Assembly: GCA_017556045.1 (NCBI GenBank) | Contig: JAFZFF010000046.1 | Span: 13,004 to 77,003, forward strand | Direction: 5' to 3' | Source: Bacteroidaceae bacterium | GTDB taxonomy: Bacteria; Bacteroidota; Bacteroidia; Bacteroidales; Bacteroidaceae | Length of the DNA: 64,000 nucleotides | In this document: positions 11,485 through 62,310 of the stretch, piece after piece | Layout of the letters: each line of letters starts with the position of its first letter | How positions within the stretch are numbered: the first letter of the stretch is position 1 | Position numbers and translations under genes: made by a program | Notes under the pieces: model-generated | What the model saw: only the letters and a program-made list of their open reading frames with translations | The model's database searches: none | What the model was told of the DNA's origin: nothing

Positions 11485-11538
11485 TCTTCACTCTTCCCTT
11501 TTCCCTCTTCCCTTTTCACTCTTCCCTCTTCACTCTTT
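11476..11538. repeat. Heptanucleotide tandem array, 9 units (plus strand ACTCTTC/CCTCTTC/CCTTTTC)
   Basis: Direct reading gives a 7-nt period. Minus-strand TGAs at 11532, 11518, 11490 and 11483 fall in all three frames. Confidence 0.85.
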
Positions 11539-16792: not shown

Positions 16793-16849
16793 CAAAGTGT
16801 GCTCCAAGTGTGCACCTACTGTTCACCAAGTGTGCACCAAGTGTGCACC
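16793..16849. repeat. Iteron-like direct repeats CCAAGTGTGCACC
   Basis: Perfect 13-mers at 16804, 16826 and 16837, plus degenerate CAAAGTGTGCTCC at 16793. All spacings are multiples of 11 bp. Confidence 0.7.
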
Positions 16850-17031: not shown

Positions 17032-17292
17032 ATGTTTAACGTCTTAAATTTGAAGAAGATGACAAAACGTACAAATTTCGCAGATGAGTATCCACTGAAC
17101 AAGGGTGACCTTGCGATGATGTACTCGCCGAACGTGTGTAGGAAGTCTGCACTGAGATTGCTGAACGCTTACATTCACAGAGCACGTGGGCTGTTGCCCG
17201 CGCTCGAAGAGGTAGGGTATTCGCATAGTGCAAGGCACTTTACAAGGAGGCAGCTGGAGCTGGTGTTGGAGTACTTAGGCGAACCGCTGTAA
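17032..17292 (+). CDS. DUF4248 domain protein
   Basis: ...DLAMMYSPNVCRKSALRLLNAYI...GYSHSARHFTRRQLELVLEYLGEPL fits the DUF4248 pattern ending in LGEP. Confidence 0.75.
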   Translation: MFNVLNLKKMTKRTNFADEYPLNKGDLAMMYSPNVCRKSALRLLNAYIHRARGLLPALEEVGYSHSARHFTRRQLELVLEYLGEPL

Positions 17293-17522
17293 ACGACGAA
17301 AAATGTAGGCCTGCTCCTTGGGAAAAGTCCAAAGGTTTTTTCTTTAGTCTAGGTCTAGAATTTTCGAACCTAAGCTGTGGCGAAAGTGACATAAGTGACG
17401 CGTCGGTGACGCTTTCGCTGACAGCCAACCCTCTCGCAAGTGATTGATTCACTTGATTAAGCAAGTGCTTTATACTACTTAAGTGACAATAATAAACCAA
17501 TAATAATATTTATACAACAATT

Positions 17523-19259: not shown

Positions 19260-19347
19260 CGTGTCACCCCATCCGTCACTATGCGTCACTCAACAGGTGT
19301 CATCAGTGGCGGATGGGATATTATTGATGATTTATAGTTTAATGATT

Positions 19348-20375
19348 ATGAGAGAGTTATACAAGTTTACCTTAGCCCATTATCGGGACATCAAGTGTCA
19401 CAACTGGAACCGCACATGCCCCAACTGTGGGAAGCGAGAGTTTTCACCCTATATCAATATCCTCACAGGGGAACCGCTCGATGATAAACGATGTGGCCGT
19501 TGTAACCGAGAGACGAACTGTGGGTATCATTACTCGCCGAAAGATTGGTTCGAAGACATCGACCCGAGCGTCGTGAGTGGTTGCCCAAGGAGGAGTACAT
19601 CGCTCGCAAGCGCCAAGAACGCCGGGAGGCTGAGGAGGCCAAGCGGATGTATCTACAACGTGAAGCTGAGCGCATGGCACGCAAGTTTGCCCCCCTCAGT
19701 AGTGAGCAACACCCCGATGCACAGGCCTACATGGACCGCATGGATGAGCTGTGTGAGCAGTCGCAGTCGACCGACAATACCTTGGCACGATGGCTGTGTA
19801 CGATGTTTCCTACGGATAAGGTGGATGAGGTGCTCCGACTATACCGCACGGGTAGCACACCGGATGGGTGGATAGTGTATTGGCAGATTGACCTTCACCA
19901 TCGAGCGCGCACGGGCAAGATGATGGCGTATGGGCCTGATGGGCATCGGTTGAAGGGAAGCGGTCCGTCGTTCAACTGGGTACATGCCAAAGAGGGCATA
20001 GAACAATTGGCCGACCAATGCCTCTTCGGTGAACATCGCCTCATGGAATGGGAGGATACCGTCGCCCTCGTAGAGAGTGAGAAGACGGCAATCTACATGA
20101 GCCTCAGATATCCCAACATACTATGGCTCGCTACGGGTGGCAAGCAAAACTTCAAGCCTGAGGTGCTATGGCCACTATGCGGAAGAGAGGTGTATGTATT
20201 GCCCGATGCCGATGCCTTGGATGAGTGGATGGCGAAGGTCGAAGTACTGAATCGTGAGCATGGATATAGGTTCATCATCCACGAAGACTATGTCAGGCTA
20301 TGCACTACTGAGGCTATTGCACGAAAAATGGATATTGCGGACATGGCTTTAGAGGGAAGAGGGTTTAGGGTTTAG
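19348..20375 (+). pseudogene. Zn-ribbon / toprim-like primase gene (DUF6371-like) split by a frameshift
   Basis: The N-terminal part MRELYKF...CPNCGKREF...CGRCNRETNCGYHYSPKDWFED is in one frame. The plausible continuation ...REWLPKEEYIARKRQERREAEE... to stop 20375 is in the -1 frame. The change lies near 19550-19570. Confidence 0.6.
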
Positions 20376-20405
20376 AGTTTAGAGTTTAGAGTTTAGAGTT
20401 TAGTG
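20361..20405 (+). repeat. Heptanucleotide tandem array (GGGTTTA x2, GAGTTTA x4)
   Basis: TAG occurs every 7 nt (20366, 20373, 20380, 20387, 20394, 20401). The second TAG is the stop of the primase ORF. Confidence 0.9.
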
Positions 20406-22055: not shown

Positions 22056-22127
22056 GGTTGAGGGTTGAGAGTTGAGGGTTGAGCGAACTATCCGGAGGCA
22101 AGGTCAACGTCAGCGTTAACGTCAACG
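22056..22127 (+). repeat. Composite element: 4 x GGTTGAG heptamers, core TATCCGGAGGC, 4 x 6-nt GTYRAC-type units
   Basis: Direct reading. The same core lies between two repeat arrays at 51044..51120. Confidence 0.8.
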
Positions 22128-22170
22128 TTTTCAAGAAACAAATGTTTAACCCCTAAAAAAGTAAAAGATT

Positions 22171-22590
22171 ATGGCAATTTCTTATGCTATCAAGAGAGTG
22201 AAGAACCCTGGTAAGAATGCGGTAGAGGGCGTGAAGTACTATCACGCGGCGGCTATCAAGGCGGGTGAGTACGACTTTGAGGAGATGATGACTGACATCA
22301 GCCACTCGACCACGGTGACCGAGGCAGATGCTATGGCAGTGCTCCGCTCGATGAAGAACCACATCATCAAGGCGCTGCTCGCTGGTCAGGTGGTGGTGCT
22401 TCAGGACATCGGCCGCTTCCAGGTAACCCTGCAGGGTAAGTGTTACTCACAGGATGCTATGGCGGCATCGGACTTCTCACCTTCGGCACAGATCACGGGT
22501 CACAAGATCATCTTCCGTCCCGAGGTGAAGCTCAAGCAGTCTGTAGCGGCAGGTATCTCACTCAAGCGCGTGACCACTGAGGCGGCGTAA
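22171..22590 (+). CDS. HU-family (HU_HIG-type) DNA-binding protein
   Basis: 139 aa. The pattern MAISYAIKRVKNPGK...YYHAAAI...GRFQVTL is typical of Bacteroidales histone-like proteins that accompany DUF3987 modules. Confidence 0.75.
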   Translation: MAISYAIKRVKNPGKNAVEGVKYYHAAAIKAGEYDFEEMMTDISHSTTVTEADAMAVLRSMKNHIIKALLAGQVVVLQDIGRFQVTLQGKCYSQDAMAASDFSPSAQITGHKIIFRPEVKLKQSVAAGISLKRVTTEAA

Positions 22591-22705: not shown

Positions 22706-22780
22706 GGTGACTAGTGGGATTCGAACCCACGACATTCAGAACCACAATCTGACGCTCTAACCGACTGAACTATAGTCACC
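22706..22780 (-). tRNA. tRNA-His: tRNA-His (anticodon GTG)
   Basis: The reverse complement folds by hand into a cloverleaf: G-1 + GTGACTA acceptor, anticodon loop TTGTGGT, T-arm GTGGG-TTCGAAT-CCCAC, discriminator C. No CCA is encoded. Confidence 0.9.
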
Positions 22781-22922: not shown

Positions 22923-23097
22923 CTTTTACGCGGAAATTCGTTCACGCGCGAATGATTTAGTTTTCACGCAGACGCCGCAGACTTACGCAGATGGTTGCAT
23001 AGCTATCGCTCGCAACTTGTCGGCTATTAGCCGAGTGTATACGTCCCGGAGGGAACGCACAAGCGAAGCAAGTGCGTGAGACCAAAATTAGTGAGAG
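22923..23097 (+). repeat. GxxExxY-flanking repeat, copy R0 (shortened)
   Basis: CTTTTACGCGGAAATTCGTTCACGCGCGAATGATTTAGTTTTCACGCAGACGCCGCAGACTTACGCAGA aligns with 23557..23627. Its tail GTGCGTGAGACCAAAATTAGTGAGAGT resembles the R2 tail. Confidence 0.75.
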
Positions 23098-23111
23098 TAT
23101 CGAGATGGGAA

Positions 23112-23556: not shown

Positions 23557-23770
23557 GCTTTTTATGCGGAATTTCGTTCACGCGTGAATGATTTAGATTT
23601 CACGCAGATGGCGCAGACTTACGCAGAAGCATACATTGCTATCGCTCGTATGTAGCCGTCCGGATGGCAAGCACAAGCGAAGCATTTGCGCAATTCTGCG
23701 TTTTCAGCGCAGTCTGCGTGAGACCTAATTTTCAGCGAGAGTGGTTTGTGTCAATTCTTCGTGAGACTAA
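23557..23770 (+). repeat. GxxExxY-flanking repeat, copy R1 (full)
   Basis: Its 5' part matches R0. From 23598 it is nearly identical to R2, at a 202-bp period. Confidence 0.8.
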
Positions 23771-23799
23771 GAGGGTGCTTACATCGCGGATTTTTTTTG

Positions 23800-23977
23800 T
23801 TTCACGCAGATGGCGCAGACTTACGCAGAAGCATACATTGCTATCGCTCGTATGTAGCCGTCCGGATGGCAAGCACAAGCGAAGCATGTGCGCAATTCTG
23901 CGTTTTCAGCGCAGTCTGCGTGAGACCAAATTTCCAGCGAGAGTGGTTTGTGTCAATTCTGCGTGAGACAAAAAAAC
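23800..23977 (+). repeat. GxxExxY-flanking repeat, copy R2
   Basis: TTTCACGCAGATGGCGCAGACTTACGCAGAAGCATACATTGCTATCGCTCGTATGTAGCCGTCCGGATGGCAAGCACAAGCGAAGCAT... repeats 23598 onward. Confidence 0.8.
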
Positions 23978-44179: not shown

Positions 44180-44208
44180 CCGTGAATGGAACTGCATTCT
44201 ATATTTTT

Positions 44209-44265
44209 CATCTTTTATAGAAATTAAAGACGAAAAGTTGTTGGTATTGAGAAGTTGTAGAACCT
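44209..44265 (+). repeat. Direct repeat flanking cysK, right copy
   Basis: See 43085..43140. Confidence 0.75.
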
Positions 44266-44753
44266 GAGACTGTACGGCAAAGTTCTCATAAACGAGCGAA
44301 ATACACAAAGCTTATTTTGAAATAATTCACAGCAAGTGCAGAGTATCTAGGACTATGAAGAACTCTGACATGTACTTATTGTAATTGAATGCACTCCAGA
44401 AAGTGCATTTTAATTGCAAAAATGCACTAAAAAAAAGTGCACAACGCTTGTTCTATATAAAGGAAGTAGTATTTTGTAGCGAAAAACGGGACTGTTGTGA
44501 ACTTGATTAATCAGAGTAGCCTTTAGGGTGCTGGCTTGCTAACCGCAAATTTGCGACTTGTTTTCCGCAAATTCTACTTTTTTGTGCCATAATCTACCAA
44601 ACGCAAGGAAATCCTGTACAAAAAAATGTGGCATATTGATAGGTGAATGCCATGTTTTGCTTACACGCCTAAGAAATTGGAAGTACGCATTTGTAAACTC
44701 AAAAGCTTATTATCTCAAAAACTCACGTTTCGCTTACTTCTTGCATTTTCCTA

Positions 44754-45070
44754 GAGAGCCTGTTTGGGTTTTATTTCGAGTTTAGTTGCCGACGCGGTAT
44801 GAAAGCGTCGGTTGCGACGACTGCCGGTTTATCGGCACAAAGGAGTTCTCTATTTGGACACCCAGGATTGTCTTATACACATAGAATAGTGGCCTATTAT
44901 TTCAAATGAGGATAGGCTGTACTCGCCGGCCATTGCAAGCAAGCTTACATGCGCTCGTTGGCACTATCCTTTGCAAAAAACGAGAGGAGAAAGATGCCGA
45001 AAACAACTGCAAATAAACGGAAAAGTAAGTTCTACAACAAATAACGTTAAAATCCAAACAGTCTCTCTCT
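44754..45070. mobile_element. About 317-bp non-coding insertion splitting repeat block X (filled site)
   Basis: X head ends at ...CATTTTCCTA (44753) and X tail resumes at GCCCGTGGCT (45071). In the uninterrupted copy the two are 3 nt apart. The insert ends are GAGAG.../...CTCTCTCT, and it carries the 44789..44845 REP-like hairpin. Confidence 0.55.
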
Positions 45071-45275
45071 GCCCGTGGCTCGTTCTTTTCGTCTGGCTTG
45101 GAGTTTGGGTGGGAATAAAGCAAGGATGAGGGATTAGCGACAAAGTCGCAGATTATAACAGGTGCAAACTTGCACTTACGGAAATATTATTATCTTTGCA
45201 GTAAACAGCGAAGATATACTGCGCTCGCTTTGAAAAATATCTAAGCAAGCTTGATATTTCTCGCTCGTTTGTTAC

Positions 45276-45283
45276 TATCTTTG
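45276..45283 (+). promoter_or_regulatory. -7 promoter box (TATCTTTG) for the RhuM-Fic gene
   Basis: Consensus TAnnTTTG lies 22 nt upstream of ATG 45305. Confidence 0.5.
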
Positions 45284-45304
45284 CATATCTTTAATGTGCG
45301 AGGT

Positions 45305-46273
45305 ATGACAAACGAGATTATCATATACCAAACCGAAGACGGACAAACACAGATTGATGTCCGTATGGAGAATGAGACTGTGTGGCTAAGTGCCAGCCAA
45401 ATGGCGAGTTTGTTCGACAGAGAAGAGTCAAATATCCGTCGACATATTATCAATGTCTTTAATGAGGGCGAACTTGAACGAACGAATAACGTGCAAAATT
45501 TACACGTTAATGGCGTAAAGAAACCAGTCCCTTTCTATACGCTCGATGTCATTATCTCCGTAGGCTATCGCGTGAAGAGTCAGCGCGGCGTACAATTCCG
45601 CCAATGGGCCAACCGCGTACTGAAGCAATATCTCGTCAAGGGCTATGCCGTGAATGAGCGTCGTGTGCTGGAGCACTACACCGAACTACGCCAGTTGGTG
45701 CAGATATTGGGTCGCACGATAAGCAGTCAGGAGCAGTTGAGCAAGCAAGAGAACCAAGACCTGCTCGATGTGGTGGTAGACTATACCTATGCCCTCGACA
45801 CACTCGACAATTACGACTACGAGCGCCTCACCATAGACCGCACCACAAGCGAAGAACCCTTCCGTGCCACTTACGAAGGTGCCATGAAGGAGATTGACCG
45901 CTTACGCGAGAAGTTTGGCGGTAGTCGATGGTTTGGCAACGAGAAGGACGACTCCTTCAAGAGTAGTATCGGGCAGATATACCAAACTTTCGGTGGAGAG
46001 GAGCTATACCCTTCGGTAGAGGAAAAAGCAGCTATGTTGCTCTATCTCGTTACCAAAAACCACTCGTTTAGTGATGGCAACAAACGCATCGCTGCAACTC
46101 TTTTCCTCTGGTTCCTCAACGGCAACCGCATCCTCTACCGCCCTGACGGCACCAAGCGCCTTGCCGATAATACCCTCGTGGCTCTCACTCTCATGATTGC
46201 TGAGAGTAAGACTGAGGAGAAAGATGTGATGGTGAAGGTGGTGGTGAACTTGATTAACCAAAGAAATGAATAA
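45305..46273 (+). CDS. RhuM-family N-terminal domain fused to a Fic/Doc domain
   Basis: IIIYQTEDGQTQIDVRMENETVWLSASQMASLF is RhuM-like. HSFSDGNKRIAA matches the Fic/Doc motif HxFxDGNKR. Confidence 0.8.
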   Translation: MTNEIIIYQTEDGQTQIDVRMENETVWLSASQMASLFDREESNIRRHIINVFNEGELERTNNVQNLHVNGVKKPVPFYTLDVIISVGYRVKSQRGVQFRQWANRVLKQYLVKGYAVNERRVLEHYTELRQLVQILGRTISSQEQLSKQENQDLLDVVVDYTYALDTLDNYDYERLTIDRTTSEEPFRATYEGAMKEIDRLREKFGGSRWFGNEKDDSFKSSIGQIYQTFGGEELYPSVEEKAAMLLYLVTKNHSFSDGNKRIAATLFLWFLNGNRILYRPDGTKRLADNTLVALTLMIAESKTEEKDVMVKVVVNLINQRNE

Positions 46274-46540
46274 GGGCTGTTAAGGTCATAAAAGCACAGA
46301 AGGCTTTCGAAGTACGCCTACGCCTATTCTTCGAAAACCTTCTGTGGATTTTGCTGTTATCGGGTCACAGACCCTGAAACTCAAATACAGCGGATAGGGT
46401 ATATCCGCCGTGACGGAAAGCACATCACGACAAAATTGAAATGCAGACCACTCAATGAGTACCAAGTGTACTTGACATAAAATAAGCGGACTCCCCCTTG
46501 ACGAGAGCGTCCGCTTATTATAGATCATTGTTTATAAGTA

Positions 46541-49500
46541 TTATTTTACTATAAACTTCTTACCATTCTGAATGTAGATACCTTTTTGTAACTCTCTACG
46601 CTCGCAAGACATACGCTCACCTTTTATATTATAAATCGGTGAATCGCTTGCATCATTGACAACATCTTCGATTCCGCTTGGGTCTGTAACAATAAGCTTC
46701 TTACTAACTCTTACTGCAGAATGATAGTTCTTGTTACCCGATTGGATGGCCTTAATTACAATTTGACCAACACCAAAGCAGTCAAGATATACCTTTCCTG
46801 CAGCCTCATAGATAGACACGAAGTTATTATCAGCAATCTCATACTCAATGTCAAGGCCTGATGTTGCCAATGCGGTCAACTCCACTTGGTCACCTATCTC
46901 AACCTCCTCGAGATTCTGTTCCCAAACGATTTCTTGTGTTGCCTTCTCGATGGTCAGTGTTCCGCTTGTATAGTTGAAGTCATAATTGGCAGCTTCTGCT
47001 CCCGACGCAGTGATTTCGTAGGTTCCAACATCGGTGGTTTTATCGGCAATGCAATTCAGTGTAGGCATTGCAGTAAACACTTTTTCACTTTCATTGTTAA
47101 CAAATCCACTGTAACTTACGGAGAAGTCTGGATTCTCCTCGCCATACACTCTGGTATAGTCGCCTACCTTAACGTCAATAGTGCGCTTGCCTACAGTTAG
47201 CATAGCTCCTTGGTAGCTCAGCTCATAGTTCTTAGCCTCAGCACCAGATAAAGTAATTTCATACTCACCCACACTGCTTGTTTGCTTCGCACTACACTCA
47301 AAGCTTGGTTCAGTAGTGATTACATCTTTCGCATCATCGTTCTTGAAGCCCTCACAATAGTAGGTAAATTCGGGATTAGCCTCAAAGTAAAGGCGCTCCT
47401 TATTCTCGGCTATCACGCTGAGCGGAGCCTTCACTACGTTCAATACACCTTCGTTATACTCAGTGAATGCGTAGTTCTGTGCCTTACCACCAGATACCGT
47501 GATGGCATACTCGCCCACATCACTCTTCTTATCAGCATCGACAGCTATCGCTGGCTTTTCAGAAATACAATCTTCATTGTCATTGTTTTTGAATCCACTG
47601 TAGGTGAGTGCTATTGCAGGGTTAGCCTCTCCATACTCCTTTTGAGCAGATACAGCGCTTACTGAAAGCGAAGCTTTGGTTACAGTCAATGCGCCATTCT
47701 TATACGTAATGTCGTAGTTCTGAGCTTCTGCACCGCTTGGCACAATCTCGTATGTACCCACAGCACTTGTCGCTATTGCTTCAGTCTTTGCCGAGGGACG
47801 ATTTGTCAAGACATCATATGTCTCCTCATTCTTGAATCCTGAGTATGCAAATGTAAACTTAGGATTCTCGTCACCATACACACGCTCTGCAGCTTCTGCT
47901 TGAATAGTCAGAGGAGCCTTGTTTACGGTGAGCGTACCGCTCGTATAGTTTATTGCATAGTTCGTTGCCTCTGCGCCATTAGGAGTAATCTCATATTCTC
48001 CCACGCTGCTCGTAGGTGTTGCTGATGTCACTACAGTAGGTGCCGTAGCCAAACAATCTGCATCATCGTCGTTCTTAAATCCCGAATATGCAAACTTAAA
48101 TTCCGGGTTAGCCTCTCCATACTCGCGCACTGTACTCTGCACGCTGATATTCAAGGGAGCTTGGGTCACGGTCAATGTACCAAAGATATATTCCGTAAAC
48201 GAATAGTTGGTAGCTACACCACCCGACACCGTCACCTCGTAGTCACCTACCGCACTATACTTTGTAGCCTTGGTAGAAGTACTCAACTCTGAGGCAAACA
48301 CAGGTACACCATCACCATTCTTCAATCCTACGTATGTGAAGTCAAATTGCGGGTTAGCGTCGCCATACACTCTTGACTTAGCATTAACAGCAACCGTAAC
48401 CGGTGCCTTCTTTACAGTCAGCGTTCCCTCGGTGCAGCCAATCTCATAGTTTTTGGCTGTAGCATTTGCTGACACGCTATATGTTCCAGCACCACTCTTT
48501 TTGTTTGCCTTGGTAGAGAACGCAACAGCACTACTCAATACACTTTCATCCTCATTGTTCACAAACCCGCTAAACGAATAGGTAAACTCAGGATTCTCAT
48601 CACCATAAATCTTTTCCGCATCATTCACCTGGATAGTCAATGGCGTCTTATTGATGGTATAGGTGTAGGGAATATCTACCTCAAGACCGTTAGAATATAT
48701 CGCTTTAAAGACCGTTTCATATGTTCCTGCCTCCTTTTGCAAATTAACAATATTCATTGTTAGTTCATCAGAACTTTCCCAATTATTAGTATAATTTACA
48801 GAAGGTTCTTGGCCATTATAGCTGAACTCATTTTGCTCAAATGTTATATATTCTATAAATTCACCACTTCCCCCCTTAACAGTTGATTTGCTATAGGTCT
48901 CTTTGTTCGAAACGTATGTGCTTGTTGCGAGCCACAAAGACTTAGGAGGTGTTATTGACACATATAGAATTTCATTTAGGTTCGAACAACCAGAAAAAGC
49001 GTTGCTATTTATTATTGTGACATTATTAGGAATTATAACACTTGTAAGACCAGAGCATTTATAGAATGCATTTGTTCCAATTCCTGTGACACAATTACCA
49101 ATGGTTAGCGAGGTTAATAGTTGTTTGTTATAGAATGGCGAATAACCTTTATTTTGATTTGAATCATAAGAAAGATTGCGGCCTAAATAGATACTTGTTA
49201 AAGGAGAATGACAAAAAAGTCCTGCCTGATATCCGTTAGAATTAGTTCCAAGTCCCAACGAAAGCGTTGTCTCACTATCCTCTATTCGTAATTCTTTTAA
49301 CGATGTACAAGAATTGAACGCGTTATCATTAATTTTTATCACACTGCTTGGTATTGCAATACTAACAAGATTACTACAGCCCGAAAATGCATACTCATTA
49401 ATTATTGTCACGCTATTAGGGATATCTACACTTGAAAGTTCTTTACGACTTGAGAATGCTTTGTTACCAATGCTTGTTACTTTATATGTATTCCCATTAT

Positions 49501-49699
49501 ACAAAACCTTTTCGGGGATAACAATATGACCAGAATATTCATTAGAATAACTACTGCCTTTATATGTTACCGAAACTGTTAGATTCGCTGTAGATGTGAT
49601 ATTGTAAAAAATTCCATCCACTTCAAAATCATAGGCATTCACTGTAACGCTACACAACAAGACCATTATCGTAGCCAACCATAGTTTAACAACTTTCAT
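46541..49699 (-). CDS. Cell-surface protein: signal peptide, BspA-type LRRs, about 9 MBG-type repeats, Ig-like domain, T9SS C-terminal sorting domain
   Basis: N-terminal NAFSGCSNL-type LRR units. The reiterated ...YGDENPEFTYSFSGFVNNE...NYxIxYxxGTLTVxKAPLT module recurs. The C-terminus is ...PIYNIKGERM...KGIYIQNGKKFIVK. Confidence 0.8.
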   Translation of the reverse strand: MKVVKLWLATIMVLLCSVTVNAYDFEVDGIFYNITSTANLTVSVTYKGSSYSNEYSGHIVIPEKVLYNGNTYKVTSIGNKAFSSRKELSSVDIPNSVTIINEYAFSGCSNLVSIAIPSSVIKINDNAFNSCTSLKELRIEDSETTLSLGLGTNSNGYQAGLFCHSPLTSIYLGRNLSYDSNQNKGYSPFYNKQLLTSLTIGNCVTGIGTNAFYKCSGLTSVIIPNNVTIINSNAFSGCSNLNEILYVSITPPKSLWLATSTYVSNKETYSKSTVKGGSGEFIEYITFEQNEFSYNGQEPSVNYTNNWESSDELTMNIVNLQKEAGTYETVFKAIYSNGLEVDIPYTYTINKTPLTIQVNDAEKIYGDENPEFTYSFSGFVNNEDESVLSSAVAFSTKANKKSGAGTYSVSANATAKNYEIGCTEGTLTVKKAPVTVAVNAKSRVYGDANPQFDFTYVGLKNGDGVPVFASELSTSTKATKYSAVGDYEVTVSGGVATNYSFTEYIFGTLTVTQAPLNISVQSTVREYGEANPEFKFAYSGFKNDDDADCLATAPTVVTSATPTSSVGEYEITPNGAEATNYAINYTSGTLTVNKAPLTIQAEAAERVYGDENPKFTFAYSGFKNEETYDVLTNRPSAKTEAIATSAVGTYEIVPSGAEAQNYDITYKNGALTVTKASLSVSAVSAQKEYGEANPAIALTYSGFKNNDNEDCISEKPAIAVDADKKSDVGEYAITVSGGKAQNYAFTEYNEGVLNVVKAPLSVIAENKERLYFEANPEFTYYCEGFKNDDAKDVITTEPSFECSAKQTSSVGEYEITLSGAEAKNYELSYQGAMLTVGKRTIDVKVGDYTRVYGEENPDFSVSYSGFVNNESEKVFTAMPTLNCIADKTTDVGTYEITASGAEAANYDFNYTSGTLTIEKATQEIVWEQNLEEVEIGDQVELTALATSGLDIEYEIADNNFVSIYEAAGKVYLDCFGVGQIVIKAIQSGNKNYHSAVRVSKKLIVTDPSGIEDVVNDASDSPIYNIKGERMSCERRELQKGIYIQNGKKFIVK

Positions 49700-49705
49700 A
49701 TCAAC

Positions 49706-50023
49706 TTATTTTATTGCTATATATACAAAATATCTATTACTTGGAGATATATTACCCCCTCCTCCTTCTCTTTTATTATTACACCTTTTATCTTCTCTAT
49801 AAACTGAAATCAGTTTGGTCTCTAACTGATTTGCTTTTTCAAGCGATTCCAGTTCGACCAAAGGTATGAGCTGTGTGTAACCTTCAGCTTTATATTCATC
49901 TTCACGTCTAATACAATCATCAGTTTTTCCAATTTTGAATCCTACAATGTCTTCTTCCGTTAACAGTTTTTTGATTGTACTAATAGCCCTTGCTGCTTTA
50001 ATGGACATTTCGTTTTTGCTCAT
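49706..50023 (-). CDS. Hypothetical small protein (105 aa), possible GIY-YIG/T5orf172-like core
   Basis: From the ATG at 50023. FKIGKTDDCIRREDEY...LETKLISVY loosely resembles the KIGxT...R...E..L pattern. Its stop lies 7 nt from the surface-protein start. Confidence 0.4.
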   Translation of the reverse strand: MSKNEMSIKAARAISTIKKLLTEEDIVGFKIGKTDDCIRREDEYKAEGYTQLIPLVELESLEKANQLETKLISVYREDKRCNNKREGGGGNISPSNRYFVYIAIK

Positions 50024-50361
50024 AGTTGCTGTATTAACTTTGCCTACAAGTCTCCCTAAGTCAGCGTTAATAATAACATATTGGCTAATGGATACAAGAA
50101 AAGCGTAGAGACTTGTCGCGCTCATCGTACATCTGGTATCGCCAAACACCACGAGAAAATGAACTGAGAAACAAATACCCCACGCTGTAGCATATATGAT
50201 GAAAATGTGTACAGCCTATAATGACTGTACACCGCTTGCATATACGCAAACAGAATGAGCGTCGCATTGTTTCCACCCTTCTCTTTGAAATTGGCGATTT
50301 CGATGTACAGGTAAAAGCAAGAAACGCATTCTTGACCGAGGATTTCTCCCCTCGGATGTGG

Positions 50362-50369
50362 CAAAAGTA
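50362..50369 (-). promoter_or_regulatory. -7 promoter box (TACTTTTG)
   Basis: Plus-strand caaaagta lies upstream of the small-gene/surface-protein operon. Confidence 0.4.
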
Positions 50370-50632
50370 CTAAAAATATTTAATTCACAAAAAGGTTCCT
50401 CGCTTTTTTTCTCAAAAGATCTGAAAAGATAATGCGAACGCTCAGAGATATTCGTTTCTCAAAAGACAAAGTAAACACGCTTGCGAGTACAAAGACAATG
50501 CAAAAAAAAGAATTAGTGTTTTCTTTATTTTTAGCTAAGGTGTCGGTGGTTGTATGTAACATTTTGAGATATAGACTATTTGCGACCGATACCCCCGTTG
50601 TGGGGTGTCGGTAGGTGTTTACACCTGCGTTA

Positions 50633-50741
50633 GGAAAATATTGCATGTGTGTAATATTTTTATTGCATGTGTAGACGGAGCAAAATGGACAGCTGCAATT
50701 TTTGTGACGAAGGTCTGTAATTTTTCTCGAGGACAGCTCCG
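50633..50741. repeat. Intergenic repeat family, copy 2 (copy 1 at 830..960)
   Basis: See 830..960. Confidence 0.6.
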
Positions 50742-51002
50742 ATGATTTTGCCGAACAGCTTTGATTTCACAACGGTAGAGATAAAGCTAAAAAAAAGGGA
50801 GGTTCGATCGCAAGAAAAGGCCTTTCCCTTTTCTAAAAAACGAATAGCCCATTTCTAAAAAACGAGCCTATGATTTTTCAGAGTAAAGCAAAATAGTATA
50901 GGACAAAGTACTAAGTAAAAAATATTTTTCGCTTTGTACGAGTAAAAAAGTGCTTATTGTAATCTCTGAATTAGCAAAATAGATAAAAATCCCCCAGGTG
51001 GG

Positions 51003-51164
51003 AAAAGTTTATTTTTGGGGTGGCATGGCAACGAAGAGCTTCGAGCTCTGAGCTGTGAGCATTGAACTGCGAGTTATCCGGAGGCTAATTTTTAATGTTC
51101 AATTTTTAACTTTCAAATTGCGAGCTCTGCTCGCTCTGCCATGCCACCCCAAAAATAAACTTTT
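51003..51164. repeat. 162-nt palindromic element: perfect 28-bp inverted repeat enclosing two heptamer stop arrays and core TATCCGGAGGC
   Basis: AAAAGTTTATTTTTGGGGTGGCATGGCA (51003-51030) is the exact reverse complement of 51137-51164. Plus-strand TGA at 51049/56/63. Minus-strand stops at 51085/92/99/106/113. Confidence 0.85.
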
Positions 51165-51247
51165 ATCACCCTGAAAATGGGTGTTTGGGGTGAAATGTTG
51201 GAATATAGGGGTAACTTACGTTAACGTAGGCAATGCGTCGAGCGAAA

Positions 51248-54181
51248 TTACAATTCTTCCATCAAGGCGCGGTAGTTGGCGTCGGTGGAGAGTACGCGGG
51301 GGATGCCGATGACGAAGAGTTGCTGGCGAGCGCGGGTGATGGCGACATTGAGTTTGCGGTCGATGGGGTAGGTGCTGGTGGGTCTGTCTGCCTCGCTGGT
51401 AGTGGCCTCTACGATGAGCTCCATCTGTGTGGGCTCGGTGACGGTGGTGCAGTAGATGATGATGTCGCGTTGGCTGCCCTGGTAGCGCTCTACGGTGTCA
51501 ATGCTGATGCCTTCGGTGTAGTGGGGCATGTCGAGGGCGGCGAGGTGGTGGCGTATGAGTGCGCCTTGTCCGCGGAAGGGGGCGATGATACCTATCGTGC
51601 GTGTGGCCTCGTAGGGGAGATTATTGGTTTGGTAGAGCTGGATGATGGACTCTACGAGGGTGGCACAGAGCTGGGCCTCGTGGGTGTTGGTCTTGAAGCG
51701 CTCGGGAGTGGTAGGCTCAGCACAGGGAACGAAGGCGGTACGGCGCGTAGCCACCAGGCTCTGCATGGGGCTGTCGGTGTCGTAGTCGGTGTAGGCCAAC
51801 GGTTGCTCTTGATGGGGCAGGGGCACGGGGCAGAGGCGACCTTCGTAGAAGCGGAGGTTGGCAAAACGGCTCACCTCGGGGTGCATGCGTCCCTGGCGAT
51901 AGAGGGTGGCGATGCAGGTGGTGTGCTCAGCTGCTGTGAGGCGGCGGTGAAGGCGCTCGAAGAGCGACTGACGGCAGTTGGTGAAGCCCAGCGAGGTGAG
52001 CAGTGGATGGGTGATGAGGGCCTCCTCCTCGGTCTGCAGGGCTATGGCGGGGAGCTGCTTGTGGTCGCCGATGAGGACGAACTTGCTCTGTAGTGTGGCG
52101 AGCAGGCCTATGAGCTGGGGCTCGAGGATCTGTGAGGCTTCGTCGATAAGGGTGAGCTGGAAGCGCTTGGCCTCGAAGAGCTCGGGGCGGGCAGAGGCGG
52201 TACTCACGGTGCTCACAAAGATACGCGTGGAGGCGATGAGGGCGCGCACCTCGTCGCGGGTGTTGAGCGTGGCTGTCTGCCGTGTCAGTGTGTGTGAGGC
52301 GTAGCGCTCATCGCAGCTTTGCTCGCTGCCGAGGCGTATGTATGCGGGCTGTCCATCGATATTTTCGAGGGCTTGGCATATCTCATCTACGGCGCGGTTG
52401 GTATAGGCCATCAGTAGTATGTTGTCGGTGGTGTGGAGGTAGTGTTCCTCTACGATGGAGCGCAGCACGATGGAGGTCTTGCCCGCTCCGGGAGCGCCTA
52501 CGATGAGGGCATAATCACGGGCTTGGCGTACGGTGCGCACGATGTTGTCGGTATCTTCTCCAGGGTAGTGGCCCACGACGTGTTGCGTTGCATCGGTGCG
52601 GGGTAGGGTGGCACCCAAGAGTAGCTGACGACGCTCCTCAGGGGCGGAGAGCAGGCTATAGAGGCTGCGGTAGGGGGTGGATGATGCGCTATCGCTTACA
52701 TCGTGCTCGAGGGCGTAGCTGGCCGTGTGGTCAAAAACCTTGGCGCTATGCTGATGCTGGCGGAGGCCGATGCGTAGGGTGTCGCGCCCGATATAGAGTA
52801 GGGTGCCCTTATGTACCTGGCGGGTAGAGACGTTGTCAACGCTGCTCTCCTTGATATAGAAGAGGACCATGTCGCCTCGGCGGAAGTTGGGCACTTCGGT
52901 GGCTTCGAGTGGGGGCAGCGCGAAGGTGAGCATGTCGTAGCCGCAACCATCGTCGGGCGTGAAGCTCTGCAGACGGAGCTGGCTGATGATGTCGCCATCG
53001 GTCAGCTTCTCTTCATCGGTGCGGCACCACAGATGGCTCTGCGCATGGTCGCGCTCGCAACGTCCTACCTTGGAGAGGTACTGCTCGCCTGCGGTGAAGC
53101 GCAGGTAGCGGTAGAAGTATGCCTTGGTGGCCTCGTCGGGGATGTGGAAGGGGGCGAGCTGTGTCGCGAGCTGGGGCCTGAGGTAGTCGCTCCAGAGGCG
53201 ATTGCTGATGGCGCGGGTGTTGAAGTCCTCGGGGGTAAGTGCGGTGAACAGCGCCTCGGTGTCTTCGTCGGTGGCAAGGCATTGCATGAGGCGTACGATG
53301 GCATTGCGCATCACCAATGCCTCATCTACGATGTGGAGGTAGCGGTTGCCATCGAAGTAGCGCGGATAGCGCGAGTAGAGGAGCAGACTGGTGATCTCGT
53401 CGCGGGGGATGCCGGTGTTGAGGTGTAGCATTTCGCGATAGAGCATCATCTGTGCCGTATGGCTCTGCTTAGGACCTTGGGGTTGCGAGTAGTACTCATC
53501 GGCTTTGCCCGACTTGAGTTCGACGATACAGCGCAGGTTGCTCTGCAGATAGTCGAGTCGGCCCTGTAAGCCCAGTGCGGGGCAGATGAATGAGGGCTCC
53601 AGCATGGCTCCTCCAGCGTTCTGCCCATGGGGATAGTGCGCGTGTAGTGCCTCGATGGAGCTGCGTATGTGTTCGTATTGGTTGCGCGCCTCACTGAAGA
53701 AGGCGGCATTGATGCCTGGACATACGGCAAACTTGAGTGCGTCGGTCGCAAAGGCTTTGCGTATGGAGGTATTGTATGATGCTGGGCGCTCGGGCGAGTG
53801 GTTGACGCAATCGTCGAGAAACTGGTTGGCCGTGTTACCCAAAAGGATGGGCATGGTCACCTCCTTGGGCGCAAGCATAGAGAGCAGGTAGCGCATGGGG
53901 TGGGGACCGCACTCGGTGAAGCAGGCGGACAGGGAACTGATATCGATGAGGTAGTCGGGCTCTACGATGAGGCGCTGGGCGGTGAGTGTATCTGGTTGCT
54001 CTAGGTCGGGTGCGAGGTCGAGCAACATCACCGTGTCGCCCTCGCTCAGATATTCTATGTCGGGGGTATATAGCGCTGAGGTGATGCGTATGCGCCACTT
54101 GGTTCCCTCTGCGTCGGTGCCATAGAGGTGGGGCTTCTCAGTGCTGAGGATGCGCAGTCGCAGGCGGTCGGGCATGGTCAT
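51248..54181 (-). CDS. DNA2/NAM7-like SF1 helicase with N-terminal PD-(D/E)XK nuclease domain
   Basis: GRLDYL...IVELKSGKAD nuclease-like motif. Helicase motifs GAPGAGKTS, LIDEASQ, LIGDHKQLPA, TVERYQGSQRD and NVAITRAR. Confidence 0.8.
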   Translation of the reverse strand: MTMPDRLRLRILSTEKPHLYGTDAEGTKWRIRITSALYTPDIEYLSEGDTVMLLDLAPDLEQPDTLTAQRLIVEPDYLIDISSLSACFTECGPHPMRYLLSMLAPKEVTMPILLGNTANQFLDDCVNHSPERPASYNTSIRKAFATDALKFAVCPGINAAFFSEARNQYEHIRSSIEALHAHYPHGQNAGGAMLEPSFICPALGLQGRLDYLQSNLRCIVELKSGKADEYYSQPQGPKQSHTAQMMLYREMLHLNTGIPRDEITSLLLYSRYPRYFDGNRYLHIVDEALVMRNAIVRLMQCLATDEDTEALFTALTPEDFNTRAISNRLWSDYLRPQLATQLAPFHIPDEATKAYFYRYLRFTAGEQYLSKVGRCERDHAQSHLWCRTDEEKLTDGDIISQLRLQSFTPDDGCGYDMLTFALPPLEATEVPNFRRGDMVLFYIKESSVDNVSTRQVHKGTLLYIGRDTLRIGLRQHQHSAKVFDHTASYALEHDVSDSASSTPYRSLYSLLSAPEERRQLLLGATLPRTDATQHVVGHYPGEDTDNIVRTVRQARDYALIVGAPGAGKTSIVLRSIVEEHYLHTTDNILLMAYTNRAVDEICQALENIDGQPAYIRLGSEQSCDERYASHTLTRQTATLNTRDEVRALIASTRIFVSTVSTASARPELFEAKRFQLTLIDEASQILEPQLIGLLATLQSKFVLIGDHKQLPAIALQTEEEALITHPLLTSLGFTNCRQSLFERLHRRLTAAEHTTCIATLYRQGRMHPEVSRFANLRFYEGRLCPVPLPHQEQPLAYTDYDTDSPMQSLVATRRTAFVPCAEPTTPERFKTNTHEAQLCATLVESIIQLYQTNNLPYEATRTIGIIAPFRGQGALIRHHLAALDMPHYTEGISIDTVERYQGSQRDIIIYCTTVTEPTQMELIVEATTSEADRPTSTYPIDRKLNVAITRARQQLFVIGIPRVLSTDANYRALMEEL

Positions 54182-55007: not shown

Positions 55008-55400
55008 TTATCCTTCGATACTAGCCAAGGCCTTCTCGCATAGTGCGATGTCGGTCGGGCGCACTACAATGTTGGCCATGTCGTCTTCGGCAAAGGCATA
55101 CATATACTCTATAGATACCTCGCTTGCCGCCAACTGTTCGAGGATGTGAGCCAGTGCACCTGCCTTGTTGGGGCAGTGGAGGCATACTACGTCGGTGAGC
55201 ATCACGGCAAAGTTCTCTCCACGCAATACCTCTACAGCCTTGTCTACATCAGATACGATGAGGCGCAGTATGCCGAAGTCTGTGGTCTCGGCCATGCTGA
55301 AGGCCTGCATGTTGATGCCATGTTGGCTCAGTGTCTTGGCAACCTCGTTGATACGTCCAGTCTTGTTCTCGAGGAATACCGATACTTGCTTGATAGTCAT
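55008..55400 (-). CDS. ACT-domain protein
   Basis: 130 aa with two ACT-like repeats. It is the usual partner downstream of phenylacetate-CoA ligase in Bacteroidales. Confidence 0.7.
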   Translation of the reverse strand: MTIKQVSVFLENKTGRINEVAKTLSQHGINMQAFSMAETTDFGILRLIVSDVDKAVEVLRGENFAVMLTDVVCLHCPNKAGALAHILEQLAASEVSIEYMYAFAEDDMANIVVRPTDIALCEKALASIEG

Positions 55401-58550: not shown

Positions 58551-59414
58551 TTATTGCTCTGTCTGCTGATAGAATCTGATGTAGTCTATCTCGTATCGTA
58601 TGGGGTACTTCTCGGGCGCAGGAAGACCACCATGTTGTCCTCCGATAGCGAGGTTGAGCAAGAAGTAGTGTGGGGTGTGGAAGGGGTTCTTATGCTCTCC
58701 GTAGGTGCCGTTGATGGTGCGGGTGAGGTCTATGTCGTTGAGCAGCTCGTCGTCGAGGTATATGCGTAGGTACTCGGGCTTCCACTCCATGCGCCAGATG
58801 TGAAACTTATCGGCCCAAGCGGGATCGAGCTCGAGGAAGTGGGCAAAGGGTATGGTCTTGGTATTCCATACGGCTTGGTTGTGGTCGTTGCCCCAGGCGG
58901 CATTGGCAAGGATATGGGGGACATCGTCGATGCGGTAATACTCCATTACATCAATCTCTCCACAAGAGGGCCAGCGCCATTGACTGCCGAGGGTCCAGAT
59001 GGCTGGCCATGAACCTTCGACGATGGGGATGCGGGCTCTTACCTCCAAGGTGCCAAAGAGAAATTCGTGTTTGCCACGTGTGTTGACAGAGGCTGAGGTA
59101 TACTCGGCATATTCGCGCTTTTGACGCCAATCGGGACGTCTGCCATTGGGCAATGACTTCGCATGGTGGGGATTATTGACCTGCTCGTGACGGGCGGTAA
59201 TGATGAGGCATCCATCGCGGCAGATAGCATTGTCGGGCTGGTACCACTGTAGCTCATAGTTGCGTACGAAGCCATGCTCGTAGTTCCAGTCGGCCTCGTT
59301 GAGGGGGCCAGCGGTATTGAACTCGTCGCTCCACACAAGGGTGCCCTTGGTATGGGTTTGGGCATAGAGAAGGGTGGTGAGGAGGCCTATAGTAGTAAGG
59401 AGTATTCTTTTCAT
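58551..59414 (-). CDS. GH16 beta-glucanase (laminarinase/lichenase-like)
   Basis: Signal peptide and the GEIDVMEY (ExDxxE) catalytic motif. Confidence 0.85.
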   Translation of the reverse strand: MKRILLTTIGLLTTLLYAQTHTKGTLVWSDEFNTAGPLNEADWNYEHGFVRNYELQWYQPDNAICRDGCLIITARHEQVNNPHHAKSLPNGRRPDWRQKREYAEYTSASVNTRGKHEFLFGTLEVRARIPIVEGSWPAIWTLGSQWRWPSCGEIDVMEYYRIDDVPHILANAAWGNDHNQAVWNTKTIPFAHFLELDPAWADKFHIWRMEWKPEYLRIYLDDELLNDIDLTRTINGTYGEHKNPFHTPHYFLLNLAIGGQHGGLPAPEKYPIRYEIDYIRFYQQTEQ

Positions 59415-59496
59415 GATTTATGATTTAAGATTTATGGTCACTAGATCTGTGTGATTTTAGACTCATCGCAGGAATGTATGATAAGAGAAAAATAAA

Positions 59497-61313: not shown

Positions 61314-61325
61314 GTCTTCCAAAAT

Positions 61326-61362
61326 TTTCAATTCTCAATTTTCAATTTTCAATTCTCAATTG
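61326..61362 (-). repeat. Intercistronic heptamer array, 5 x (R)AATTGA on the coding strand
   Basis: Plus-strand TCA at 61328, 61335, 61342, 61349 and 61356 gives TGA every 7 nt on the minus strand. Confidence 0.9.
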
Positions 61363-62267: not shown

Positions 62268-62310
62268 AATTGTCAATTTTCAATTATCAATTATCAATTG
62301 TCAATTATTA
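62268..62310 (-). repeat. Intercistronic heptamer array, 5 x AATTGAN on the coding strand
   Basis: Plus-strand TCA at 62273, 62280, 62287, 62294 and 62301. It is preceded by the mmdA TAA stop at 62308-62310. Confidence 0.9.

What the first reader, a model, noticed from the sequence alone, without database searches (positions are those of the whole stretch)
51003..51164. 162-nt element: perfect 28-bp inverted repeat enclosing opposite-strand stop arrays around the core TATCCGGAGGC
Seen:
- AAAAGTTTATTTTTGGGGTGGCATGGCA (51003-51030) pairs perfectly with 51137-51164. Extra GAGC/GCTC and GAGCTC pairs lie inside.
- The left half of the loop is a 7-nt array (GAGCTTC GAGCTCT GAGCTGT GAGCATT GAACTGC GAGTTAT) with plus-strand TGA at 51049/56/63.
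- The right half has minus-strand stops at an exact 7-nt period (TAG 51085, TAA 51092, TGA 51099, TAA 51106, TGA 51113).
- The centre is TATCCGGAGGC, which contains the palindrome TCCGGA.

The element therefore stops translation in every frame from either direction and forms a very long hairpin. It sits between the helicase 3' end and a divergent accessory operon.

Inference: possible readings are a modular bidirectional transcription/translation insulator, a MITE-like mobile hairpin, or a structured RNA.
Basis: partly seen in the sequence, partly recalled or inferred. Interest (0 to 1): 0.78.

Follow-up and report, generated by a model that had tools for sequence, protein, structure and literature searches.

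The report
Gene-less remnant of an inverted-repeat cassette
The 162-base hairpin is a small, gene-less copy of a repeated DNA cassette found in gut and rumen Bacteroidales, whose full-length copies carry two genes between the same inverted ends, so it is most likely a relic of repeated DNA and not a purpose-built stop signal.

Summary
The sequence features are real. There is a perfect 28-bp inverted repeat (34 nt at 94%), 7-nt arrays (z 6.4 at lag 7) and the core TATCCGGAGGC. The stop codons, however, occur at chance level: 12 seen against 11.8 expected, and all six frames are closed in 43% of shuffles. The flanking operon is co-directional with the helicase, not divergent.

The arms are copies of a consensus of about 38 nt, tttnCAGGTGAnAAAAGTTTATTTTTGGGGTGGCA(T/GT/AT)GGCA. 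I collected 84 such arms in 56 loci, most from Bacteroidales MAGs and gut or rumen metagenomes. They form 27 convergent pairs and no divergent pair, spanning 133-2459 nt. No recombinase or transposase recurs nearby, and there is no match in Rfam, phages or plasmids.

Full-length members (L053, L079, L082, L089, L090) hold an HU-HIG DNA-binding gene and a VapE-like NTPase gene that point outward. Between the genes lies a 4 x 22-bp palindrome array. The arms and the array change as VapE diverges. L005 is the same cassette with the HU-HIG gene deleted.

The window copy is two terminal modules (arm, GC hairpin, heptads) fused around a heptad-core-heptad module. That module also lies 40 nt upstream of an HU-HIG gene at 22 kb in this window. 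Related strains carry a deletion scar at the site.

Verdict: a MITE-like miniature of an apparently undescribed cassette family. How it spreads is unknown.

The parts
51171..51211 (-). Outer terminal segment of type T2 (read on the minus strand: CCCCTATATTCCAACATTTCACCCCAAACACCCATTTTCAGGGTGAT). It is always found 12-13 nt from an arm.
   Evidence: The same segment flanks arms in L006, L035, L047, L062, L067, L070 and L071. It contains a stretch complementary to the arm (repeat I4).
51137..51170 (-). Right arm, a copy of the family's 38-nt terminal inverted repeat. Read on the minus strand it points inward.
   Evidence: (nhmmer E 2.7e-13).
51120..51134 (-). GC hairpin H1 next to the right arm (GCGAGC-AGA-GCTCGC on the minus strand).
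   Evidence: A hairpin of variable sequence follows most of the 74 arms (mean MFE -4.6 against -2.6 kcal/mol for shuffles, p 3e-8).
51086..51119 (-). A/T-rich heptad array (AATTTGA AAGTTAA AAATTGA ACATTAA AAATTAG on the minus strand), of the AATTGAN type.
   Evidence: (D5). The same heptad type follows the HU-HIG stop codon in L053 and fills intercistronic spacers at 61323-61361 and 62268-62308.
51075..51085 (+). Core TATCCGGAGGC, the centre of the heptad-core-heptad module.
   Evidence: An identical core lies at 22088-22098 in the second module. Variants (CCTCCGG, CTTCCGG, CTACCGG) occur in L006, L010, L039, L066, L071 and L052.
51036..51077 (+). Heptad array GAGCTTC GAGCTCT GAGCTGT GAGCATT GAACTGC GAGTTAT.
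   Evidence: Homologous arrays occur in L035, L066 and L049.
51032..51043 (+). GC hairpin next to the left arm (CGAAG-AG-CTTCG).
50997..51030 (+). Left arm, the second copy of the terminal inverted repeat. It points inward.
   Evidence: (nhmmer E 4.2e-14).
50955..50996 (+). Outer terminal segment of type T3 (TGTAATCTCTGAATTAGCAAAATAGATAAAAATCCCCC). It is always found 15-20 nt from an arm.
   Evidence: The same segment occurs in L035, L037, L062 and L071.
50700..50790 (-). Array of four sites at a 22-nt period (RAGCTGTYC on the minus strand) upstream of the 88-aa ORF. It lies outside the arm pair here but inside the arm pair in L054.
22056..22128 (+). Second copy of the heptad-TATCCGGAGGC-heptad module, without arms, 40 nt upstream of an HU-HIG gene.
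   Evidence: (fold -28.4 kcal/mol on the plus strand, -16.0 on the minus strand).
22171..22590 (+). HU-HIG family gene (139 aa), the same family as the cargo gene of full-length cassettes.
   Evidence: PF18291, E 1.9e-23.

Best explanation
The element is a miniature, gene-less member of a family of DNA cassettes found in gut and rumen Bacteroidales. The family is bounded by inverted terminal repeats of about 38 bp.

Full-length members are about 2.3-3.2 kb. Their layout is: arm, then HU-HIG DNA-binding gene, then four 16-bp palindromes at a 22-bp period, then VapE-like P-loop NTPase gene, then arm. Both genes point outward. Each gene end is followed by a heptad array and a GC hairpin that abuts the arm.

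Cassettes decay by internal deletion into non-coding elements of 130-600 nt that keep the arms and pieces of the non-coding modules. The window copy is two terminal modules fused around a heptad-core-heptad module that is otherwise found in front of an HU-HIG gene.

Shown:
- the family and its pairing rule;
- the full-length architecture;
- co-divergence of the arms with VapE;
- one deletion series;
- strain polymorphism at this locus.

Inferred:
- The arms are cis sites for a protein acting in trans, perhaps one encoded by the cassette.
- Because the two arms are identical and inverted, recombination at the arms can swap or flip the interior.
- At this locus the element has no dedicated function. 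Any transcript that crosses it would carry a 34-bp stem, which could impede or be cleaved in read-through from the helicase into the LRR island.
For: Family and pairing
- 84 arms in 56 loci form 27 convergent pairs and 0 divergent pairs, spanning 133-2459 nt.
- The conserved block is about 38 nt, and 74 of 84 arms have AGGTGA (one mismatch allowed) in the few bases just outside the 23-nt core.

Full-length cassettes in five contexts
- L053/L079/L005/L024 lie downstream of rpoA-rplQ. L082, L089 and L084 lie at the ends of glycosyltransferase clusters. L090 lies elsewhere.
- Arms flank every one of them and change with VapE identity (95% to 64%). Both arms of a pair share the variant.
- The palindrome array upstream of HU-HIG changes as well.

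Decay into short elements
- L005 has a deletion of about 570 nt in the HU-HIG ORF relative to L053.
- L091 and L079 lack the gene but keep the array.
- Modules seen in short elements (module C, the arrays, the heptads) map to non-coding parts of the cassette.

The window copy
- Its interior is homologous to L066 and L035, which sit in other contexts.
- Its core module recurs at 22056-22128, in front of an HU-HIG gene.
- The related strains L027/L030 keep the outer flanks and half an arm but lack the palindromic core.
Against: - No target-site duplication could be defined, and no true empty site was found. The only allele without the element looks like a deletion scar.
- No known transposase or integrase is in or near any copy.
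- Interiors of the short copies are heterogeneous, unlike a classical MITE burst.
- Full-length cassettes at 64-75% VapE identity in different loci could be old paralogues and not evidence of recent movement.
- Sampling is biased: loci were found through the arm sequence or through VapE.
- Only one element lies in this 64-kb window.
Confidence: 0.7

Rival explanations
1. Invertible DNA switch (inverton). A recombinase acting in trans flips the segment between the arms and changes expression of the adjacent LRR surface-protein operon.
For: - The inverted arms are conserved across many loci, as for the targets of a global invertase.
- The interior is flipped relative to the fixed T2 and T3 outer flanks between the window and L035, L062 and L071.
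- Module C is inverted between the orthologous loci L015 and L051.
- Many copies lie next to surface-protein genes.
Against: - All seven independent assemblies of this locus have the same orientation.
- No recombinase gene recurs near arms.
- The 106-nt interior has no TAnnTTTG box.
- Interiors of about 87 nt (elements of 133-134 nt) are short for synapsis.
- Full-length members carry whole genes, not promoters.
- The flips could also come from rare homologous recombination or from insertion in either orientation.
Confidence: 0.1
2. The arms are promoters that fire inward, producing RNAs that start with a stabilising 5' hairpin. In full-length cassettes these RNAs would be antisense to the 3' ends of HU-HIG and VapE. 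In the window, the right arm would drive the LRR operon.
For: - Each arm holds an exact Bacteroidetes -7 box, TATTTTTG, pointing inward. These are the only two such boxes in 50600-51300.
- The box is kept in the very different L090 arms.
- A GC hairpin of variable sequence follows the arm, with more G-U pairs on the inward strand (57 against 32).
- The E allele keeps the box.
- Multicopy sRNA families with canonical promoters are known in Bacteroides (PMC11697453).
Against: - There is no -33 TTTG at the 19-21 nt spacing used by the clear promoters of this window.
- The box is lost in the arms of L082 and L084, and hit in about ten partner arms (T8C, T14C).
- The strand asymmetry is weak once composition is controlled (p 0.048).
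- Near-invariance over the whole 38 nt exceeds what a promoter needs.
- Flanking genes show no orientation bias.
Confidence: 0.12
3. One reading: a dedicated bidirectional insulator that terminates transcription through the long hairpin and stops translation in all frames through the stop arrays.
For: - The fold is very stable on both strands.
- All six frames are closed.
- The element lies between two transcription units.
- AATTGAN heptads also follow stop codons elsewhere.
Against: - Stop content is at chance level in the element (12 against 11.8; 43% of shuffles close all frames).
- It is also at chance level across the family (all three frames closed in 0.32 of segments, same as 0.32 in shuffles).
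- The GC part of the stem is followed by A5, not by a U-tract, so it does not fit an intrinsic terminator.
- Related strains do without the element.
- Arms also flank whole genes.
Confidence: 0.05

Closest known systems
MITEs with internal minisatellites in Bacteroidales (BrickBuilt and MITE464/PgRS of Porphyromonas gingivalis; PMC4596501)
   Same: They are intergenic, non-coding and multicopy. They are bounded by terminal inverted repeats, carry internal tandem repeats of about 22-23 nt, vary in length, are often partial, and lie near surface and secreted-protein genes.
   Different: BrickBuilt has 12-nt TIRs (GAGACCTTTGCA) shared with IS5-family ISPg elements that encode a transposase. Here the arms are about 38 nt and unrelated in sequence. 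The gene-carrying relatives encode HU-HIG and a VapE-like NTPase and no transposase. The 22-nt units are palindromes, and their sequence differs between copies.
Correia elements (CREE) of Neisseria
   Same: They are 100-160 bp with TIRs of about 26 bp and form long hairpins in transcripts. They carry promoter-like boxes in the ends and lie at gene boundaries. (From my own knowledge.)
   Different: Correia elements are homogeneous in their interior, make a TA target duplication and have no gene-carrying form. None of these points holds here.
REPIN/BIME and neisserial intergenic mosaic elements (dRS3-flanked NIMEs)
   Same: A short conserved repeat occurs in inverted pairs around variable, mosaic linkers. 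The elements lie at boundaries of strain-variable regions, and the interiors are exchanged by recombination. (From my own knowledge.)
   Different: REPs are themselves the hairpins and are tied to a RAYT gene. dRS3 repeats are 20 bp and serve as phage integration sites. Neither feature was found here.
Bacteroides invertons (Mpi/Tsr-controlled invertible promoters)
   Same: Conserved inverted repeats occur at many loci of one genome, often next to surface-structure genes, and there is evidence that interiors have flipped.
   Different: There is no promoter box in this interior, no recombinase nearby, and no orientation polymorphism in seven assemblies. Some members enclose two complete genes.
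HU-HIG lineage-specific expansions of Bacteroidetes (PMC5499826)
   Same: The cargo gene of the full-length cassettes, and the gene next to the second module in this window, belong to this rapidly diversifying and patchily distributed family.
   Different: That study reported no conserved gene linkage and no flanking repeats. Here HU-HIG is paired with a VapE-like gene, a 4 x 22-bp palindrome array and inverted terminal repeats.

Membership tests
MITE (miniature inverted-repeat transposable element) | Terminal inverted repeats | tested here: met
   28/28 bp perfect, 34 nt at 94%. 27 convergent pairs across the family.
MITE (miniature inverted-repeat transposable element) | Small, non-coding, multicopy and dispersed | tested here: met
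   The element is 162 nt. The family spans 133-578 nt for the non-coding copies. One MAG has at least 5 loci, and one metagenome scan gave 38 contigs. Only one copy lies in this 64-kb window.
MITE (miniature inverted-repeat transposable element) | Target-site duplication and filled versus empty sites | tested here: inconclusive
   No consistent direct repeat was found at the ends, and the similarity fades out gradually. The only allele lacking the element keeps the outer flanks and half an arm, so it is a deletion scar.
MITE (miniature inverted-repeat transposable element) | An autonomous partner with the same TIRs that encodes a transposase | tested here: not met
   Gene-carrying partners exist, but they encode HU-HIG and a VapE-like NTPase only. 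No recurrent transposase or recombinase lies within 3 kb of arms.
Inverton (invertible promoter) | Both orientations present in a population | tested here: not met
   Seven assemblies of this locus all have the same orientation. Consensus assemblies cannot exclude a minority orientation.
Inverton (invertible promoter) | A promoter inside the invertible segment | tested here: not met
   There is no TAnnTTTG in 51031-51136 on either strand.
Inverton (invertible promoter) | A cognate site-specific recombinase | not testable with these tools
   None lies near the arms. A global invertase could be encoded anywhere in the genome.
Intrinsic (Rho-independent) terminator | A GC-rich stem immediately followed by a U-tract | tested here: not met
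   The GC part of the stem (GGGGTGGCATGGCA) is followed by AAAAATAAAC on both strands, and the T-tract lies 5' of the stem.
Any Rfam RNA family | Match to a covariance model | tested here: not met
   The only match at gathering threshold in the window is a tRNA. In 50600-51400 there are only chance-level hits. 20 family loci gave none.
REPIN/BIME | A REP doublet tied to a RAYT (Y1 transposase) gene | not tested
   No RAYT was seen in the loci held. Whole genomes could not be searched.
BrickBuilt / IS5-derived MITEs of Porphyromonas | TIR GAGACCTTTGCA shared with ISPg elements | tested here: not met
   The arm sequence is unrelated (one search compared).

The most novel reading that the evidence does not exclude
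The arms are the ends of a kind of duplicative or mobile cassette in Bacteroidales that has not been recognised. It lacks any known transposase or integrase and is built around a VapE-like NTPase, a fast-diversifying HU-HIG (winged-helix) protein and that protein's own 4 x 22-bp palindrome array. Arms, array and proteins co-evolve. Spread and decay of the cassette would explain both the lineage-specific expansions of HU-HIG genes and the many mosaic intergenic repeats at the borders of capsule and surface-protein islands.
Probability: 0.25. Interest if true: 0.8.

Novelty: new variant of a known kind. Interest (0 to 1): 0.55.

Why it matters
If the family is what it seems, four things follow.
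- It ties together three puzzles of Bacteroidales genomes: the unexplained expansions of HU-HIG genes, the VapE/VirE-like genes found at the ends of polysaccharide loci, and the mosaic repeats and heptad arrays in intergenic DNA.
- The conserved inverted arms give a simple handle for cataloguing these cassettes.
- The arms also offer portable homology that could swap or flip regulatory DNA at the borders of surface-protein and capsule islands.
- The arms often lay close to contig ends in the metagenome hits, so they may contribute to assembly breaks.

For the single element in this window the practical consequence is modest. It is not an engineered-looking insulator. It is a decayed repeat that places a very stable hairpin between the helicase gene and a strain-variable LRR island.

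Tried and rejected
- Literature: a full-text search for the arm sequence gave only unrelated hits. Searches for Bacteroides MITEs, FopS sRNAs, promoter motif PM2, dCas12f-sigmaE targets and VirE/HU near polysaccharide loci gave analogies but no description of this family.
- Rfam: nothing at gathering threshold or at E-value threshold.
- Phages, plasmids and viral contigs: no match, or chance matches only.
- Sigma-54 promoter: TGGCAT is present, but no GC lies at the -12 spacing. Rejected by inspection.
- Integron attC, dif and telomere-resolution sites: the defining core sequences or the contiguous palindrome are absent. Rejected by inspection.
- Empty site: the L027/L030 allele at first looked like an empty target. 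It keeps the T2 and T3 flanks, which never occur without an arm elsewhere, and the half-arm form is unique to that locus. It is therefore a deletion.
- T1/T2/T3 flanks as independent landing pads: rejected, because they always sit at a fixed distance from an arm.
- Stop-codon arrays as a selected feature: rejected.
- Target-site duplications: only 3-5 nt matches at variable offsets, not convincing.
- A recombinase or transposase near the arms: clustering of 200 flanking ORFs found only orthologous neighbours.
- Other arm types in the window: none.

Full report
**1. The observation**

The sequence is as described. 51003-51030 is the exact reverse complement of 51137-51164. The repeat extends to 34 nt at 94% (50997-51030 / 51137-51170). 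No shuffle of the window gave such a match. Either strand folds at about -82 to -84 kcal/mol, eight standard deviations below shuffles.

The three plus-strand TGA, the five minus-strand stops and the core TATCCGGAGGC are at the stated positions. The 7-nt period is significant, with autocorrelation 0.525 at lag 7 (z 6.4) and echoes at lags 14 and 21.

Two points fail.
- Stop codons are not enriched. The loop has 12 against 11.8 expected, and 43% of composition-matched shuffles close all six frames.
- The neighbouring operon is not divergent. The SF1 helicase (51248-54181), the 88-aa ORF (50380-50646) and the LRR_5/MBG_2 protein (46541-49699) are all on the minus strand.

**2. The arms belong to a dispersed family**

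A scan of one genome per species with 19 nt of the arm gave 22 loci. Seventeen of them share a much longer motif. Sixteen of those come from Bacteroidaceae, Bacteroidales or Alistipes MAGs of animal and human guts, with up to five loci in one MAG. The seventeenth is a 1-kb contig of a MAG labelled Eubacteriales. The other five are chance hits without the longer motif. A metagenome scan gave 38 more loci.

The conserved block is tttnCAGGTGAnAAAAGTTTATTTTTGGGGTGGCA(T/GT/AT)GGCAg, about 38 nt. Across 56 loci I counted 84 arms. There are 27 convergent pairs and no divergent pair, with outer spans of 133-578 nt plus two of 1957 and 2459 nt. In the metagenome hits many unpaired arms lie close to a contig end, and several of the genome hits lie near the edge of the stretch retrieved.

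Flanking genes have no common function and no orientation bias. No transposase or recombinase recurs within 3 kb. Rfam, phage, plasmid and viral collections gave nothing. Only the two arms of the finding occur in the 64-kb window.

**3. Anatomy next to the arms**

Immediately inside most arms is a GC hairpin whose sequence differs from copy to copy while the pairing is kept. Mean MFE is -4.6 against -2.6 kcal/mol for shuffles (p 3e-8). Then come 7-nt arrays. The lag-7, 14 and 21 signal is family-wide in the first 80 nt inside the arms and absent outside them.

Further in, many copies have four 16-nt palindromes at a 22-nt period, with at least six different sequences. Other recurring modules are also present.

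Outside the arms there are three recurring segments, T1, T2 and T3. They are always at a fixed distance from an arm, so they are outer parts of the terminal repeats and not independent targets. The window has T2 on the helicase side and T3 on the island side.

**4. Full-length relatives**

Two arm pairs enclose genes. L053 reads: arm, VapE-like gene on the minus strand, four GTCACCGCGGTGAC-type palindromes, HU-HIG(wHTH) gene on the plus strand, arm. It lies downstream of rpoA-rplQ.

I then searched with the VapE-like protein and looked up contigs for homologues at 94%, 78%, 75%, 70%, 66% and 64% identity.
- In five of these six look-ups (94%, 75%, 70%, 66% and 64%) the gene, usually together with HU-HIG and always pointing outward, is bracketed by convergent arms. 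The contig for the sixth (L091, 78%) carries the upstream arm and ends 0.7 kb past the gene.
- The arms change step by step with VapE divergence. They run from AAAAGTTTATTTTTGGGGTGGCA, through AAAAGTTCATATTTGGGGTGGCA and AAAAGTTCATAAATGAGGTGGCA, to ACGATTTTTATTTTTGCCCTGGCA. Both arms of a pair share the variant.
- The palindrome array upstream of HU-HIG changes too: CACCGCGGTG, CTCCGCGGAG, CTTCGCGGAG, CATCGTACGATG.
- The contexts differ. One is the rplQ locus, three are ends of glycosyltransferase clusters, and one is elsewhere.

This is the behaviour of a discrete genetic element whose ends co-evolve with its cargo.

**5. Decay into miniatures**

L005 is the rplQ-locus cassette with an internal deletion of about 570 nt. 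The deletion removes the HU-HIG ORF but keeps its first 40 nt, the array, the post-stop heptads, the hairpin and the arm. L079 and L091 likewise keep the array without the gene.

The modules seen in short elements map to non-coding parts of cassettes. Module C is the VapE 3' UTR, the arrays are the HU-HIG upstream region, and the heptads are the spacers after the stop codons. The heterogeneous interiors of short copies are therefore what independent decay of different cassettes would leave.

**6. The window copy**

Its interior aligns with L066, which has a 68-nt insertion, and with L035. Both sit in unrelated contexts.

Its centre, heptads-TATCCGGAGGC-heptads, recurs at 22056-22128 in the same window without arms. 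That copy is 40 nt upstream of an HU-HIG gene (22171-22590). There it folds into a regular bulged hairpin on the coding strand only.

The A/T heptads (AATTGAN on the minus strand) are of the type that follows the HU-HIG stop in L053. The same type also fills intercistronic spacers at 61323-61361 and 62268-62308. So the element is two terminal modules fused around an HU-HIG-associated module.

**7. Polymorphism and recombination**

Strains with an identical ACT protein (55008-55400) and the same helicase gene but without the LRR island (L027, L030) have T2, then AAAAGTTTATTTTTG, then TCACCTG and T3. That is the outer flanks and half an arm without the palindromic core, together with two further indels. 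This form occurs nowhere else, so it is a deletion scar. Synteny between the two strain types breaks about 350 nt from the element.

Relative to the fixed T2 and T3 flanks, the interior is inverted between the window and L035, L062 and L071. Orthologous loci (L015, L051, L007/L011) carry different interiors between the same flanks. Recombination at the arms, site-specific or homologous, is the simplest explanation. All seven assemblies of the window locus agree in orientation.

**8. What the arms do**

This is the weakest part.
- The arms hold an exact Bacteroidetes -7 box pointing inward, the only such boxes in the intergenic region. The box survives in the very different L090 arms. It is lost in L082 and L084, it lacks a -33 partner, and it is hit in several partner arms.
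- G-U pairs favour the inward strand for the adjacent hairpin, but only weakly once composition is controlled (p 0.048).
- The polarity of the A- and T-tracts is wrong for a terminator.
- Partner arms often differ without compensation, so perfect pairing is not required.

I therefore treat the arms as protein-recognised DNA ends. That step is an inference from their co-divergence with the cargo. Inward antisense promoters are the main alternative, and an inverton is a lesser one.

**9. Comparison and novelty**

The closest described things are MITEs with internal minisatellites in Porphyromonas (BrickBuilt, PMC4596501), Correia elements, REPIN/BIME and neisserial mosaic elements, and Bacteroides invertons.

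The element meets the descriptive MITE criteria: TIRs, small size, non-coding, dispersed. It fails or leaves open the mechanistic ones: there is no target duplication, no empty site and no transposase-bearing partner.

HU-HIG expansions are known (PMC5499826) but were reported without linked genes or repeats. I found no description of an arm-bounded HU-HIG/VapE cassette in the searchable library. That does not prove there is none.

**10. Verdict**

The finding is a real and non-random feature. Its 'stop array / insulator' reading is not supported. It is best filed as a miniature derivative of an apparently undescribed TIR-bounded cassette family. Interest is moderate for the element itself and higher for the family it led to.

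Noticed in passing
window 22056-22128 and 22171-22590: A heptad/hexad array pair around CGAACTATCCGGAGGCAAGG folds into five 5-bp helices with regular bulges on the plus strand only (-28.4 against -16.0 kcal/mol). It lies 40 nt upstream of an HU-HIG gene. It may be a leader structure for that gene.
   Followed up: partly
window 61323-61361 and 62268-62308: AATTGAN heptad arrays (read on the minus strand) fill the spacers between cistrons of the methylmalonyl-CoA decarboxylase-like operon and end right at the next start codon. Heptad arrays look like a general intergenic feature of this genome (also at 11476-11537, 20363-20403 and 59413-59436).
   Followed up: partly
window 50700-50790: Four sites at a 22-nt period (RAGCTGTYC on the minus strand) lie upstream of the 88-aa ORF. 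They are conserved in strains without the element (L027) and occur inside the arm-bounded element of L054.
   Followed up: partly
window about 44200-50640: A low-GC island (33-45% GC) holds small ORFs, an LRR_5/MBG_2 surface protein and a RhuM/Fic gene. It is replaced by HydG/HydF-like genes in related strains (L027, L030). The synteny break lies about 350 nt from the element.
   Followed up: partly
window 16795-16849 and 17032-20375: An 11-nt unit, AAGTGTGCACC, repeated five times lies upstream of a DUF4248 gene. That gene is followed by DUF3987 (VirE-like) and DUF6371 genes, then GTTTAGA x6 at 20363-20403. The same GTTTAGA heptads (14 or more units) lie between the arm and the HU-HIG stop in L082.
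   Followed up: no
window 23598-23969: A 202-nt unit is repeated 1.8 times at 97% identity, next to the tRNA gene at 22706-22779. A related sequence with a CCGGAGG centre lies at about 23000-23100.
   Followed up: no
L084 5400-5650; L089 4990-5170: The VapE 3' UTR module (ATAAAGC..TTTAAGATGGCTTGCTTGCTCGGC..) is tandemly triplicated in L084 and duplicated in L089, directly abutting the arm. Each unit begins with an arm-like GCGCCATT.
   Followed up: no
L016, L018, L055 (about 75 nt outside the main arm); L090 1773-1816 / 4879-4922: A second arm type, GATTTTTATTTTTGSCCTGGCA, occurs as the TIR of the most divergent cassette (L090). It also occurs as a direct outer copy next to type-1 arms, which suggests nested or serial insertions.
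   Followed up: partly
L084 3495-3929 and 6006-9041: One cassette encloses a fragment of an rve (integrase core) gene and is followed by an LRR_5 surface-protein gene. This echoes the LRR island next to the window element.
   Followed up: no
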